A stretch of 51,038 bases of DNA, from the IMG/VR virus record IMGVR_UViG_2872180393_000001. One strand, 5' to 3'. Every line of letters starts with the position of its first letter. Position 1 is the stretch's first letter. This DNA is from a virus (taxonomy: Duplodnaviria; Heunggongvirae; Uroviricota; Caudoviricetes). Shown here in pieces: positions 21,001 through 24,000 of this stretch. The position numbers are program-made.

Positions 21001-24000
21001 CTATTCACTGATTACTCCGATCACCCTCGCAAACTTGTCACGCTAAACCCAAAGCTCAAATCAACAGCAGCCGGACGTTACCAGCTTCTTTCCCGTTGGT
21101 GGGATGCATACCGTAAGCAGCTTGGGCTGAAAGACTTCTCTCCGAAAAGCCAGGACGCTGTTGCACTACAGCAGATTAAAGAGCGTGGCGCTTTACCGAT
21201 GATTGATCGCGGTGATATCCGTCAGGCAATCGACCGTTGCAGCAATATCTGGGCTTCATTGCCGGGCGCTGGTTATGGTCAGTTCGAGCATAAAGTTGAC
21301 AGCCTGATTGCAAAATTCAAAGAAGCAGGCGGAACGGTCAGAGAGATTGAGGTATGAGCAAAGTAACCGCGATTATCTCCGCTCTGGTTATCTGCATCAT
21401 CGTCTGCCTGTCATGGGCTGTTAATCATTACCGTGATAACGCCATTACCTACAAAGAGCAGCGCGATAAAAAAGTCAGTGAGCTGAAGCAGGCGACTGCC
21501 ACCATTACTGACATGCAGCAGCGCCAGCGTACTGCTGATGCACTTGATGCTAAATACACGAAGGAGTTAGCTGATGCGAAAGCTGAAAATGATGCTCTTC
21601 GGCGCAAGCTTGATAATGGTGGCAGGGTGCTCGTCAAAGGAAAATGCCCTGTGCCATCCTCAGCCGAAGCCTCCAGCGCCTCCGGCATGGGCAATGATGC
21701 CACCGTCGAACTCTCTCCAGTTGCTGGACGAAACGTTCTCGGTATCCGGGACGGAATTATCCGCGACCAAACAGCACTGAGAACGCTTCAGGAATACATC
21801 TGGACGCAATGCCTTCGATGATAGCGATAATTTTACTCATCATCCTTCACATCTGGCTCTGTAGACAGGGTGGTGATCACTTCTGGAGTGAATCCAGATT
21901 AAACATCTCATTGCTGATGCTTGATATTGAGCATCTGGCGCGCGGTAAGGGGCTGCGTTGAGATAAGAGCCAGTCATCACAAACACCAGGATTTAGCCTC
22001 GCATTTGCGGGGCTTTTTTACATCTGCAGTAAACCGCGCATCGCAGCGCGTAACAATCCCGAGTCTTTCAGAAAGCTGAGCCTGAGAACTGCCGTATATG
22101 GTGGCGACCATCTCGGGACGGCTTTTCTGTGCGAACAGGCTCAACTTTCTAAAGGAAATACCGACATGAACAAATCATTAACCGTTCTTCCTTCTGGCGA
22201 ATACCCGACCATGAGCAGTCTTGAGATGGTGGATTACATTAATGCTGATCGGAAATCCAAAGCGGAGGCGGAGGGGCTTGCGTTCCCCTGTAAGAAATAT
22301 CGCAAACTCGAACACCGCAGTTTCATGAAGAAAGTACCCAGGGTCCTCGGGGATGCAGCTGCAAAATTTTTTGCAACTGATACCTATATCAACGGAACAG
22401 GTGGTGTTGTGGAGAGGGATATTTGCAATTTTCCCAAGCGTGAAGCTTGCCTCATGGCAATGAGCTACAGCTATGAGCTTCAGGCGCAGGTGTATGACCA
22501 CATGACGGAGCTTGAGGGCGGGAAGGACATTAACCTCCTCGATTTCTCTGGCCTGACCGATATGGCAATCAGCGAAATGCAAAACCGTGTCGCGGCTGCT
22601 GAGAAGTTCTCATTTGAAATGCACGGTCAAGCAGGTAGCGCTCTCATGACTCGTCGGAAGAAAGAGAAGAAGGCCATTAAAAAGGCTGAGCAGCTTGTGA
22701 AGGATCTGATTCAGTTCAAGCTATGTGACATGGGGGATTTCCCTGATGGTAAACCAGCATGACTCCGATTGATTTCATACATAAAAATGTAACAACCGAG
22801 TTAATAAAGCTTGGGTACGACCAGAACGCGGCTATGACTGGCGCTGACATGGCGGTGGAGCATTACCGCCGTTGTTCACAAGCCAGCAGAAAAGGCCGAG
22901 TTTTCGATGACTGCCTGTACATTGCAAAACAGTGGGCAGGTAGGCAGAAAAGGGAAAAAATGACAACCTGAGAGCTACTTTCACAACGGCTCTTCATTAC
23001 AAAGCCTATCTACGGGTGGGCTTGATAATGGCTTATACCCTACACGGGATAACTTAACTGATATCCCTTTTAACGGATAAAGGTATTCAGGCCTGACACA
23101 TCATGCGCTGTATCGTCGCTGTATTCCCGCATTAACCATGACCGTAGCCCGACGGGGAACTCCTTCTGCGCGAGTGTGCGGGAATAATCAAAAACGATGC
23201 ACACCGGGTTTTTACCGCGTTTATGGTTCGCGGGTTTGTCCCTCATGCTCGCCAGTCCTGTGCGGGGGTGGAAGAAACAGGACACTTACACTGATTCTTG
23301 TGGGTACGATGCTATTCCTTTCTGGATTATCCCGATGTCATTCATGCAGGGCGCTGTATCAGACGTTCGTCATGGCTGTCAGGCTGACGGGTCCTCCCGG
23401 TGGGGTGGCCTGCCACGGGGCGGGAGCGGCGCAGAATTTCACTATTTATGAAAATTTTTCGGAAACCATGTCCGGTTTCTCTGAAGGTTAACCATTTGAA
23501 AAATATAGAAATGTGCTTTCTGTGAACCGGACATGCGCAAAAATTGAACACTCAAACCGGACATATATGCCGCGTTTCATAAAGTTGTTCGCAAGATGCA
23601 TGTTTAAAACGCATGAGGGGAGATTTTTTGGCGAGGTGAACAGTGGCTACTCAGACTGAAGTTGCCAGGCATTTGAGTCTGACCGATCGCCAGCTTCGCA
23701 GATTACAGAAACTGCCGGGTGCCCCGGTTTCGAACAAGCGAGGACAACTGGATCTGGATGAGGTAGCCTGAGTTTAACGGACACTCCTTCCTGAAATAGA
23801 ATGGCATCAGAAGGAGCTAATAATGAGCAGAAAAACCCAACGTTACTCTAAAGAGTTCAAAGCCGAAGCTGTCAGAACGGTTCTTGAAAATCAACTTTCG
23901 ATCAGTGAAGGCGCTTCCCGATTATCCCTTCCTGAAGGCACTTTAGGACAATGGGTTACCGCCGCCAGAAAAGGGCTCGGTACTCCTGGTTCCCGCACGG

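What the first reader, a model, noticed from the sequence alone, without database searches (positions are those of the whole stretch)
23400..23570. cos site with three AACCGGACAT repeats as candidate Nu1-binding sites
The segment parallels lambda cos but with substitutions in the cohesive-end region (ACGGGGCGGGAGCGGCGC versus lambda ACGGGGCGGCGACCTCGC). Three copies of AACCGGACAT, one inverted, lie between cosN and the Nu1 start in the arrangement expected for cosB R sites. Packaging specificity may therefore differ from lambda.
Basis: partly seen in the sequence, partly recalled or inferred. Interest (0 to 1): 0.35.

Follow-up and report, generated by a model that had tools for sequence, protein, structure and literature searches.

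The report
Lambda-type cos with different terminase sites
This is the DNA-packaging start site (cos) of a lambda-like prophage; it has lambda's layout, but its three short repeats and matching terminase small subunit appear to define a common packaging specificity that I did not find described, and in this copy the prophage's own terminase genes are broken.

Summary
AACCGGACAT occurs exactly three times in 51 kb, all within 97 bp (23468-77 inverted, 23525-34, 23555-64; 0.06 expected). The segment is a lambda-type cos. It has cosQ GGGTCCT, a cosN with cohesive end GGGCGGGAGCGG (lambda GGGCGGCGACCT; changes only at bp 7, 8, 9, 11, 12), the conserved CTATTTATGAAAATTTT spacer, R3 at bp 51-60, an IHF-like core at bp 72-84, then R2 and R1.

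The repeats are very probably binding sites for the terminase small subunit (Nu1).
- In 123 unique lambda-like cos regions, the motif is found with the DRQLRRLQ type of Nu1 DNA-binding domain (39 of 39). It never occurs with lambda-, 21- or Gifsy-type domains.
- Orthologues at 60-78% identity keep the TCCGGTT core at bp 54 and 108, although the spacers are unrelated.
- Changes in the recognition helix (RR to RD or RN) go with ATGTCC changing to ATTTCC or ACTTCC.

R1 points the same way as R2, unlike lambda and 21. The cosN variant fits the known neutral variation of the right half of cosN.

In this window, Nu1 is split by IS600 and gene A is frameshifted, so this cos could work only in trans. 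Verdict: a new member of a known kind, of moderate interest.

The parts
23389..23395 (+). cosQ-like heptamer GGGTCCT, 22 bp before the predicted top-strand nick (23 bp in lambda)
   Evidence: Read directly. The same heptamer is at the same place in lambda, PhiR12_1, Gifsy-1, Tritos and all 11 representatives. cosQ is reported as highly conserved.
23416..23431 (+). cosN: CG | GGGCGGGAGCGG | CG. The predicted 12-base cohesive end is 23418-23429 and differs from lambda at bp 7, 8, 9, 11 and 12.
   Evidence: Gap-free alignment with lambda, 21 and phi80. The phage Tritos record ends at ...CTGCCACG and starts at GGGCGGGAGCGT, the homologous positions. Gifsy-1 has GGGCGGCAGCGT. The nick positions themselves are inferred.
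23442..23458 (+). Conserved cosN-to-cosB spacer element CTATTTATGAAAATTTT
   Evidence: Identical in lambda, 21 and phi80. More than 120 viral contigs contain it. It is invariant in the 49 unique relatives.
23466..23482 (+). R3: CCATGTCCGGTTTCTCT. The 10-mer ATGTCCGGTT is at 23468-23477, which is cos bp 51-60.
   Evidence: Same position as lambda R3 (bp 50-65). Invariant over 17 nt in 49 unique relatives. The TCCGGTT core is at bp 54 (55 in the Klebsiella one) in all 11 diverged representatives.
23489..23501 (-). I1-like IHF core TTTCAAATGGTTA (12 of 13 matches to WATCAANNNNTTR), cos bp 72-84
   Evidence: Lambda and 21 have I1 at bp 74-86. A core with at most 1 mismatch lies on the same strand at bp 72-73 in 8 of 11 representatives, and 3 of these are perfect. 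On its own a match of this quality is not significant (33 in the window, 43 expected).
23525..23534 (+). R2: AACCGGACAT, inverted relative to R3, 57 bp start to start (cos bp 108-117)
   Evidence: The AACCGGA core is at bp 108 (109 in the Klebsiella one) in all 11 representatives. The lambda and 21 R3-R2 distance is 56-57 bp.
23555..23564 (+). R1: AACCGGACAT, a direct repeat of R2 30 bp downstream (cos bp 138-147)
   Evidence: Present at bp 138 in E. coli and Enterobacter kobei relatives and at bp 151 in Klebsiella. Absent in the Salmonella, Citrobacter, E. coli P0010 and unassigned P0014 representatives.
23643..23758 (+). Nu1 (terminase small subunit), N-terminal fragment: GTG start, residues 1-39, containing the predicted winged helix-turn-helix (recognition helix DRQLRRLQ)
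   Evidence: E. coli CFSAN029787 has an intact 169-aa homologue behind a 99.7% identical cos. Predicted helices 4-10, 15-22 and 38-54.
23759..25022 (+). IS600 (1264 bp, TG...CA ends) inserted in Nu1, with a 3-bp target duplication GGA (23756-58 and 25023-25)
   Evidence: RefSeq labels the matching sequence 'IS3-like element IS600 family transposase'.
25023..25419 (+). Nu1, C-terminal fragment (the part matched by Pfam Phage_Nu1; self-association and TerL binding in lambda)
25391..27317 (+). Gene A (terminase large subunit, lambda gpA-like), reading frame broken between 26772 and 26857
   Evidence: ORFs 25334-26857 and 26772-27317. Compared with the intact 642-aa gene of CFSAN029787.

Best explanation
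The segment is the cos site of a lambda-like prophage, laid out like lambda's: cosQ, cosN, a conserved spacer, then a complex cosB made of R3, an IHF site, R2 and R1.

The three ATGTCCGGTT / AACCGGACAT copies are the R sites. They would be bound by the N-terminal winged helix-turn-helix of this prophage's own type of Nu1, whose recognition helix is D15-RQLRRLQ-22.

By analogy with lambda, IHF bends the DNA between R3 and R2. A dimer of Nu1 DNA-binding domains can then dock on the inverted pair, and the Nu1 bound at R3 (bp 51-60) positions gpA to nick cosN. This would leave a 12-base 5' end, GGGCGGGAGCGG. R1 is an accessory site.

Neither the R sequence nor the DNA-binding domain is of the lambda, 21 or N15 type, so the module should confer a separate packaging-initiation specificity.

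Shown: the sequence anatomy, the conservation, and the co-variation of domain and site.
Inferred: binding, bending, the nick positions and the specificity.

In this particular prophage, Nu1 is split by IS600 and A is frameshifted. The site can therefore be used only if another prophage of the same type supplies terminase.
For: 1. Anatomy. The site aligns without gaps with lambda, 21 and phi80 from cosQ to the spacer. R3 is at bp 51-60 and the R3-R2 distance is 57 bp, against 56-57 bp in lambda and 21.
2. Not chance. There are 3 exact copies within 97 bp, with 0.06 expected in the whole window.
3. Module co-variation. Among 123 unique cos regions that share the CTATTTATGAAAATTTT element, all 39 with the DRQLRRLQ domain have at least 2 copies of the motif. 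None of the 51 lambda-type, 16 21-type or 4 Gifsy-type regions does; most of those carry their own R sequences.
4. Natural domain swap. E. albertii and an Escherichia sp. have the same Nu1 C-terminal half joined to an N15/Monarch-type domain. Their cosB carries GGTTGTTGTT sites instead.
5. Conservation in loci chosen by protein only. R3 is exact in 78 of 78 loci. 17 nt around R3 are invariant in the 49 unique sequences, while the R2-R1 spacer varies.
6. Distant orthologues (60-78% identity). Enterobacter kobei has all three sites at bp 54, 108 and 138 with unrelated spacers. Citrobacter and Salmonella orthologues keep R3 and R2.
7. Helix-base co-variation. Helices with RR at residues 19-20 go with ATGTCCGGTT. 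Five helix variants with RD or RN go with ATTTCCGGTT or ACTTCCGGTT. Pseudomonas phage LPPA33 (RN) has a GTTTCCGGTT inverted pair.
8. IHF core. It lies on the same strand at bp 72-73 in 8 of 11 representatives.
9. The domain is predicted as a helix-turn-helix plus wing. It aligns collinearly with the lambda Nu1 domain, so that lambda helix 17-24 corresponds to residues 16-23 here.
10. The module is found in working phages. The PhiR12 phages, deposited as complete phage genomes with K-12 or E. coli C given as host, carry it. CFSAN029787 has the identical variant cos with intact Nu1 and A.
Against: - No binding or packaging experiment exists for this module in the literature I could search.
- R1 has the non-canonical orientation and is missing in several relatives, so a three-site model is not general.
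- Pfam Phage_Nu1 does not match residues 1-70. The fold search gives only weak E-values (0.28 or worse), although the matches are consistently MerR-like winged-helix and TerS/Rpp domains.
- The IHF match is not significant on its own, and the PhiR12 and O157 relatives have 2 mismatches.
- Most of the comparative sample consists of closely related E. coli prophages, so conservation within that set is weak evidence by itself.
- The R core shares CATGTC with phage 21 R sites, so some cross-recognition cannot be excluded.
Confidence: 0.85

Rival explanations
1. Fossil site. The cos is an intact-looking relic of a dead prophage and is never used, because its own terminase genes are inactivated. This rival concerns present function, not identity, and it is compatible with the best explanation.
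For: Nu1 is split by IS600 and gene A changes frame. The 51-kb window holds no second Nu1 or cos of this type.
Against: All cos subsites are still identical or nearly identical to those of CFSAN029787, which has intact Nu1 and A (99.7%). In O157 Sakai, prophage Sp4 has an IS-disrupted nu1 yet was packaged, which the authors attribute to the terminase of Sp14, whose cos is identical. Prophages of this cos type are common: 432 of 5,426 complete E. coli genomes have a place covering at least 80% of the query, and up to 5 places occur per genome.
Confidence: 0.45
2. The repeats are R sites, but the specificity is not new: they are cross-recognised by phage 21-type terminase. The 21 R sites are CATGTCGGnCC and those here are CATGTCCGGTT.
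For: The hexamer CATGTC is shared and the layout is the same. There is a precedent for one-way sharing: N15 terminase packages lambda DNA.
Against: The extra C shifts the 3' half of the site. The DNA-binding domains are not detectably similar in sequence: tblastn matches start at residue 64 and Pfam matches start at residue 71. No 21-type domain is found with this motif, or the reverse, among the 123 unique cos regions.
Confidence: 0.1
3. The repeats bind some other protein, such as a phage or host regulator or a satellite-encoded factor, or they act as a transcription signal. They are not TerS sites.
For: No direct binding data exist. R1 and R2 are direct repeats, unlike the canonical cosB.
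Against: The motif switches together with the Nu1 N-terminal domain, and even with single helix residues. Its distance from cosN is fixed at bp 54 and 108 (55 and 109 in the Klebsiella relative). The scan found no promoter-like site, and only a trivial 5-bp hairpin overlaps R3.
Confidence: 0.04
4. The repeats are conserved because they lie in a small gene on the minus strand (40 aa, 23442-23564, annotated as a hypothetical protein in PhiR12_1). Its ATG codons fall inside R1 and R2.
For: The ORF is open in 74 of 87 unique E. coli cos sequences and is annotated in PhiR12_1.
Against: The ORF is truncated in 12 of 87. The peptide varies by radical replacements exactly where the DNA spacer varies, while the DNA motifs stay fixed. 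Salmonella and Citrobacter relatives lack R1, and with it the start codon. The Enterobacter spacers are unrelated.
Confidence: 0.01

Closest known systems
Phage lambda cos (cosQ-cosN-cosB with R3-I1-R2-R1) and gpNu1/gpA terminase
   Same: Same order and spacing of subsites: cosQ heptamer, CG-flanked 12-bp cosN with left half GGGCGG, the CTATTTATGAAAATTTT spacer, R3 at about bp 50-60, an IHF core at about bp 72-86, and R2 inverted about 57 bp from R3. The Nu1 and A genes follow directly. The Nu1 C-terminal half (Pfam Phage_Nu1, about 46% identity) and gpA are homologous.
   Different: R sequence CATGTCCGGTT instead of CGTTTCC(G/T)TTCT. The Nu1 residues 1-70 are not matched by the Phage_Nu1 model, and the helix is RQLRRLQK instead of RTIQNWQE. 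R1 is inverted relative to lambda's and lies 30 bp rather than 46 bp from R2. The cohesive end differs at 5 of 12 positions. Nu1 starts at bp 226 rather than 191.
Phage 21 cos and gp1 (the second documented specificity)
   Same: Complex cosB with the same spacing. The R sites share the hexamer CATGTC.
   Different: The 21 R site is CATGTCGGnCCT, one base shorter before GG and with a different 3' half. The helix is RTIERWQS. R1 has the same orientation as R3. The cohesive end is lambda's.
N15 / Monarch group (the third documented specificity) and Gifsy-1
   Same: The Monarch-type E. albertii prophages share this Nu1's C-terminal half and lambda's cosN. Gifsy-1 has a related cohesive end, GGGCGGCAGCGT, changed at bp 8, 9 and 11.
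   Different: Their R sites (GGTTGTTGTT; GATCC(G/T)TTC) and recognition helices differ. N15 itself has a single R3 plus a remote rR2.
Lambdoid prophages of E. coli O157:H7 (e.g. Sakai Sp4/Sp14) and the PhiR12 phages
   Same: Same Nu1 type (94-95% identity) and the same three repeats at the same positions. The Sp4 and Sp14 cos and Nu1 were aligned with lambda in Asadulghani et al. 2009, Fig. S8.
   Different: They have lambda's cohesive end GGGCGGCGACCT and lambda-like DNA to the left of cos. In them R1 is half of a 20-bp palindrome, AAACCGGACATGACCGGTTT. To my knowledge the R sites were not named or tested there.
mEp460 / Tritos / vB_EcoS-569R4 phages (DUF1441-type TerS, long gpA-like TerL)
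   Same: The window's cosQ-to-cosN stretch up to ...GGGCGGGAGCGGCGC, and also 23580-23611, are 94-97% identical to these phages.
   Different: Their cosB and both terminase subunits are different. The window's cos is therefore a mosaic of two packaging lineages.

Membership tests
Lambda-like cos (Feiss definition: 12-base 5' cohesive ends related to lambda's, with cosQ, cosN and cosB) | cosQ heptamer GGGTCCT about 22-23 bp upstream of the top-strand nick | tested here: met
   23389-23395, 22 bp before 23418.
Lambda-like cos (Feiss definition: 12-base 5' cohesive ends related to lambda's, with cosQ, cosN and cosB) | cosN with a conserved left half (GGGCGG) and CG dinucleotides flanking both nick sites; variation tolerated at bp 7-12 | tested here: met
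   CG|GGGCGGGAGCGG|CG. All 5 differences from lambda are at bp 7-12.
Lambda-like cos (Feiss definition: 12-base 5' cohesive ends related to lambda's, with cosQ, cosN and cosB) | Staggered nicks that give 12-base 5' extensions at these positions | not testable with these tools
   Indirect only: the Tritos record's ends fall at the homologous positions.
Complex cosB (lambda, 21, phi80, Gifsy-1, Monarch) | R3 at about bp 50-65 from the left end | tested here: met
   The 10-mer is at bp 51-60. The core is at bp 54 (55 in the Klebsiella one) in all 11 representatives.
Complex cosB (lambda, 21, phi80, Gifsy-1, Monarch) | IHF site I1 between R3 and R2 | tested here: met
   12 of 13 matches at bp 72-84 on the same strand as in lambda and 21. 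At most 1 mismatch at bp 72-73 in 8 of 11 representatives. Sequence level only; IHF binding was not tested.
Complex cosB (lambda, 21, phi80, Gifsy-1, Monarch) | R2 inverted relative to R3, about 56-57 bp away | tested here: met
   57 bp here, and constant in all 11 representatives.
Complex cosB (lambda, 21, phi80, Gifsy-1, Monarch) | R1 in the same orientation as R3 (opposite to R2) | tested here: not met
   R1 is a direct repeat of R2, 30 bp downstream. R1 is absent in five of the 11 representatives.
Complex cosB (lambda, 21, phi80, Gifsy-1, Monarch) | R sites bound by the TerS N-terminal domain | not testable with these tools
   Supported only by co-variation of domain and site.
Lambda packaging specificity | R = CGTTTCC(G/T)TTCT with the Nu1 helix RTIQNWQE | tested here: not met
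Phage 21 packaging specificity | R = CATGTCGGnCCT with the gp1 helix RTIERWQS | tested here: not met
   Only CATGTC is shared. The domain type differs.
N15/Monarch packaging specificity | R = GGTTGTTGTT with the helix SVQAFDKWG | tested here: not met
Pfam PF07471 Phage_Nu1 | Match over the whole profile, including the N-terminal DNA-binding domain | tested here: inconclusive
   68 bits (cut-off 30), but only residues 71-150 match, to profile positions 84-163. Lambda Nu1 matches positions 1-164.
MerR-like winged helix-turn-helix fold of the TerS DNA-binding domain | Strand, helix, turn, recognition helix, wing, helix, superimposable on lambda gpNu1 or Rpp | tested here: inconclusive
   The model has helices 4-10, 15-22 and 38-54, with pLDDT of about 74-83 for the first 50 residues. 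Foldseek matches are RacA, RdfS, MerR-family, TerS and Rpp domains, with target TM-scores of 0.45-0.64 for the DNA-binding-domain matches, but E is 0.28 or worse. hhalign aligns residues 5-30 collinearly with lambda 6-31, carried by the strong C-terminal match.

The most novel reading that the evidence does not exclude
The CATGTCCGGTT / DRQLRRLQ module is a fourth, experimentally uncharacterised packaging-initiation specificity of lambda-like phages. It would be one of the commonest in E. coli, including the O157:H7 prophage pool. It would also have natural sub-specificities: helix residue 20 being R, as against D or N, would read G as against T or C at the third base of ATGTCC. On this reading, which prophages can package each other in trans could be predicted from sequence, and a simple residue-to-base recognition rule for TerS could be tested directly.
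Probability: 0.6. Interest if true: 0.5.

Novelty: new member of a known kind. Interest (0 to 1): 0.35.

Why it matters
Packaging specificity decides which co-resident prophages, defective prophages and satellites can be mobilised by one another's terminase.

The papers I could read document only three lambda-like specificities: lambda, 21 and N15. The same authors note that the observed diversity is surprisingly modest.

The module found here is widespread. 432 of 5,426 complete E. coli genomes have a place covering at least 80% of the query, and it is present in O157:H7 prophages.

It also comes with natural helix and site variants. These make a recognition code testable with a few gel shifts and helper-packaging crosses.

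For this window itself the practical message is modest. It is an ordinary, correctly recognised cos in a prophage whose terminase is dead.

Tried and rejected
- Literature search for the motif strings and for cosB/TerS specificity. No description of this R sequence was found. The absence covers only open-access text.
- Sequence search of Nu1 against PDB chains. Only chance-level hits.
- Whole-protein Foldseek search. The families matched are coherent, but the E-values are not significant. I use it as weak support only.
- Protein-based scan of one genome per species. It returned only 4 loci, because it finds close relatives only. The word-indexed protein search plus contig look-ups worked better.
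- My first tally of cosN types was wrong. The R3/R2 pair is itself an inverted repeat, so the pattern matched on the wrong strand. I redid it with a strand anchor.
- IHF consensus counted over the whole window. It is not enriched, so the argument rests on position and conservation only.
- Promoter and terminator scan. Nothing meaningful.
- The idea that the cosN change needs a matching change in gpA. I did not pursue it, because the published data say right-half cosN changes do not affect cleavage, and the same cosB occurs with at least 7 cosN 12-mers.
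Full report
**1. The observation**

The 10-mer AACCGGACAT occurs exactly three times in the 51,038-base window, and all three copies fall within 97 bp:
- 23468-23477 on the minus strand (ATGTCCGGTT on top);
- 23525-23534 on the plus strand;
- 23555-23564 on the plus strand.

Dinucleotide-preserving shuffles give 0.06 exact copies on average, and none of 100 shuffles reaches three. The repeat finder reports the same pairs: a direct repeat spaced 30 bp, and 11-nt perfect inverted repeats. The quoted string ACGGGGCGGGAGCGGCGC is at 23415-23432.

**2. Anatomy compared with known cos sites**

I fetched the ends of lambda, 21, phi80, N15 and Gifsy-1 and compared them. The window is collinear with lambda, without gaps, from cosQ to the cosN-cosB spacer. 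Positions below count from the first base of the predicted cohesive end (23418 = bp 1).

| Subsite | Window | Lambda / 21 |
|---|---|---|
| cosQ GGGTCCT | 23389-23395, 22 bp before the predicted nick | 23 bp before the nick |
| cosN | CG\|GGGCGGGAGCGG\|CG | CG\|GGGCGGCGACCT\|CG |
| Spacer CTATTTATGAAAATTTT | 23442-23458 | identical in lambda, 21 and phi80 |
| R3 | bp 51-60 | bp 50-65 |
| IHF core | bp 72-84, 12 of 13 to WATCAANNNNTTR | I1 at bp 74-86 |
| R2 | bp 108-117, inverted, 57 bp from R3 | 56-57 bp from R3 |
| R1 | bp 138-147 | 46 bp from R2 in lambda |

In lambda, 21, Gifsy-1 and Monarch-type cos sites, R2 is the inverted site and R1 points the same way as R3. Here R1 is a direct repeat of R2, 30 bp away.

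**3. The cohesive-end difference**

All five differences from lambda lie at bp 7, 8, 9, 11 and 12. The left half, the flanking CG dinucleotides and cosQ are unchanged.

Feiss et al. 2015 (PMC4669245) report the following:
- natural variation is common in bp 7-12 (N15 at 9 and 12; Gifsy-1 at 8, 9 and 11);
- mutations there have no measurable effect on cos cleavage;
- lambda and N15 terminases do not discriminate between the two cosN sequences.

Gifsy-1 has GGGCGGCAGCGT.

The exact variant is shared with a different lineage of phages: mEp460, vB_EcoS-569R4 and Tritos. These have a DUF1441-type TerS and a 677-700-aa gpA-like TerL. The Tritos record ends at ...CTGCCACG and begins GGGCGGGAGCGT. These are the positions homologous to lambda's ends.

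Among 87 unique E. coli cos regions with this cosB:
- 70 have lambda's cosN;
- 8 have the window's variant, 7 with the mEp460-like left flank and 1 with a lambda-like left flank;
- 9 have one of five other 12-mers.

Across 11 diverged representatives there are 9 different 12-mers.

The cosN change is therefore real, but it belongs to a known and apparently neutral kind of variation. Its likely consequence is that these ends cannot anneal with lambda-type ends. It is not a sign of altered terminase specificity.

**4. What the repeats are**

Five lines of comparative evidence point to TerS (Nu1) binding sites.

*(a) The motif and the DNA-binding domain switch together.* I collected lambda-like cos regions through the spacer element alone and pooled them with the motif-selected set. 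This gave 123 unique cos regions.
- All 39 whose Nu1 has the helix DRQLRRLQ carry at least two copies of ATGTCCGG/CCGGACAT.
- None of the 51 lambda-type, 16 21-type or 4 Gifsy-type regions does.
- Most of those other regions carry at least two copies of their own R sequences (44 of 51, 14 of 16, 4 of 4).

*(b) A natural domain swap.* Prophages of E. albertii and an Escherichia sp. encode a Nu1 with the same C-terminal half but an N15/Monarch-type N-terminal domain. Their cosB carries GGTTGTTGTT sites in the canonical arrangement.

*(c) Conservation in loci chosen by protein only.* In 78 loci selected only through the Nu1 protein, R3 is exact in all 78 and all three sites are exact in 56. In the 49 unique sequences, 17 nt around R3 are invariant and R2 and R1 are nearly so. 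The R2-R1 spacer varies freely.

*(d) Distant orthologues.* Full-length homologues of 60-78% identity exist in Klebsiella, Salmonella, Citrobacter and Enterobacter. Their contigs all have the TCCGGTT core at bp 54 and AACCGGA at bp 108 (55 and 109 in the Klebsiella one). The spacers around them are unrelated. Enterobacter kobei has all three sites at bp 54, 108 and 138. The Salmonella, Citrobacter and two further representatives lack R1, and Klebsiella has it at bp 151. The inverted R3-R2 pair is thus the conserved unit, and R1 is accessory. This agrees with the accessory role reported for lambda R1.

*(e) Helix-base co-variation*:

| Residues 19-20 | Helix variants | R site |
|---|---|---|
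| RR | (D/E)RQLRRLQK | ATGTCCGGTT |
| RD or RN | ERRLRDLQK, ERWLRDLQK, ARRVRDLQK, ERQLRNLQK, ERQFRNLQK | ATTTCCGGTT or ACTTCCGGTT, in both R3 and R2 |

Pseudomonas phage LPPA33 has a TerS 43% identical to this one, with the helix DRQVRNL. It has CCGTTTCCGGTT just upstream of terS and a perfect inverted copy 194 bp away inside the gene. This resembles the remote rR2 site of N15.

The IHF-like core recurs on the same strand at bp 72-73 in 8 of 11 representatives, and three of these are perfect matches.

**5. The protein**

The reconstituted Nu1 matches Pfam Phage_Nu1 only over residues 71-150. Lambda Nu1 matches over the whole profile. tblastn matches to lambda, 21, phi80 and N15 begin at residue 59-73. 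The N-terminal 60-70 residues are therefore a different sequence family.

An AlphaFold2 model from 21 homologues predicts a short strand, helix 4-10, helix 15-22, a loop with a bridge residue, and helix 38-54. The pLDDT is about 74-83 over the first 50 residues.

Foldseek against the PDB gives only weak E-values, 0.28 or worse. The matches are nevertheless uniformly MerR-like winged helix-turn-helix domains: RacA, RdfS excisionase, BmrR/CueR/SoxR, BldC, phage TerS domains 7lw0/7lxs, and the Rpp and Rpp-TerS entries 6hlk/6hn7. Their target TM-scores are about 0.45-0.64 over about 50-65 residues for the DNA-binding-domain matches.

A profile-profile alignment places residues 5-30 collinearly on lambda residues 6-31. 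Lambda's recognition helix 17-24 then corresponds to residues 16-23, RQLRRLQK. I treat the fold assignment as likely but not proven.

**6. State of this copy**

Nu1 starts at GTG 23643 and is interrupted after codon 39 by a 1264-bp IS600 (23759-25022, TG...CA ends, 3-bp duplication GGA). It resumes at 25023 and ends at 25419. Gene A (from 25391) changes frame between 26772 and 26857.

E. coli CFSAN029787 has a 99.7% identical cos followed by intact Nu1 (169 aa) and A (642 aa). The variant cosN together with this cosB is therefore not merely a product of decay.

No complete E. coli genome in the collection has the Nu1::IS600 junction. A Shigella flexneri genome has IS600 in the same gene, with an adjacent deletion.

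This prophage cannot cut its own cos. In O157 Sakai, prophage Sp4 has an IS-disrupted nu1, yet its DNA was packaged. The authors attribute this to the terminase of Sp14, whose cos is identical. Use in trans is therefore possible here too, but it is untested.

**7. Mosaic structure**

Window 23105-23432 (through cosN) and 23580-23611 are 94-97% identical to mEp460-type phages. The cosB between these two patches, and the Nu1 and A genes after them, are of the PhiR12/O157 type. As a result Nu1 starts at bp 226 instead of 196. The cos region is thus a recombination joint between two packaging lineages.

**8. Comparison with what is known, and novelty**

It works like a complex lambda-type cosB and passes most membership tests for a lambda-like cos. 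It fails the R1-orientation feature and the lambda, 21 and N15 specificity definitions.

The papers available to me state that three specificities (lambda, 21, N15) have been documented. None mentions this R sequence.

The same cos type was aligned with lambda for O157 prophages Sp4 and Sp14 as a 'putative cos'. It is also present in the recently deposited PhiR12 phage genomes, where Nu1 is annotated but the sites are not.

I therefore call it a new member of a known kind: a further, very common allele of the cosB/TerS recognition module. Its interest is moderate, mainly because natural helix and site variants make the recognition rule testable.

**9. Rivals**

- A small minus-strand ORF (23442-23564) overlaps the sites. 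It is truncated in 12 of 87 unique relatives, varies by radical replacements, and has no counterpart in Salmonella or Citrobacter relatives.
- No promoter-like site is present.
- Cross-recognition with phage 21, which shares CATGTC, cannot be excluded, but the domain-site table argues against it.
- The site may be a functionless relic in this genome. That is compatible with its identity as a cos.

Noticed in passing
window 23759-25022: A 1264-bp IS600 with a GGA target duplication splits Nu1 after codon 39. No complete E. coli genome in the collection has this junction. A Shigella flexneri genome (L133) has IS600 in the same gene with an adjacent deletion, which suggests a Shigella or EIEC-like source.
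   Followed up: partly
window 26772-26857: The terminase large-subunit gene A (25391-27317) changes reading frame here, so both terminase genes of this prophage are inactivated. Alternatively, this could be a sequencing error.
   Followed up: partly
window 23105-23432 and 23580-23611: Both patches flanking cosB are 94-97% identical to mEp460/vB_EcoS-569R4-type phages, which use a DUF1441 TerS and a long gpA-like TerL. The cosB lies between two patches from another packaging lineage, and Nu1 starts at cos bp 226 instead of 196.
   Followed up: partly
L135 900-1632 and L136 900-1632 (E. albertii; Escherichia sp.): A natural chimera. The same Nu1 C-terminal half is fused to an N15/Monarch-type DNA-binding domain, with GGTTGTTGTT R3, R2 and R1 sites and lambda's cosN.
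   Followed up: yes
L327, L329, L330, L331, L332 (upstream 200 nt of terS): Sub-families whose recognition helices have RD or RN instead of RR carry ATTTCCGGTT or ACTTCCGGTT at the R3 and R2 positions. This suggests a contact between residue 20 and the third base of the site, and further sub-specificities.
   Followed up: partly
L009 138-150 and about 335-347 (Pseudomonas phage LPPA33): A perfect 12-nt inverted repeat, CCGTTTCCGGTT, with one copy just upstream of terS and the other 194 bp away inside the gene. It resembles the R3/rR2 layout of N15, in a phage whose TerS is 43% identical to the one here.
   Followed up: no
window 23442-23564 (minus strand): A 40-aa ORF starts at the ATG inside R1 and spans R2 and R3. 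It is annotated as a hypothetical protein in PhiR12_1. It is truncated in 12 of 87 relatives and not conserved as a peptide, so it is probably spurious.
   Followed up: yes
L138 1468-1490 (O157) and L001 3140-3165 (PhiR12_1); window 23554-23577: In the O157/PhiR12 clade, R1 is half of a 20-bp palindrome, AAACCGGACATGACCGGTTT. A fourth, oppositely oriented, one-mismatch copy therefore overlaps R1. In the window this arm has degenerated (ATATGCCGCGTTT).
   Followed up: partly
L323, L329, L330 (cosN region) and IMG/VR loci with AAACACCGGG|GGTCGTAGGACG: Some relatives with the same cosB have cohesive-end regions that also differ in the left half or in the flank (GGGGCGCTAACC; GGACGGCAGACG after CCGGG; GGTCGTAGGACG). 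This is at odds with the reported constraint on bp 1-6. I placed the nick positions by spacing only.
   Followed up: no
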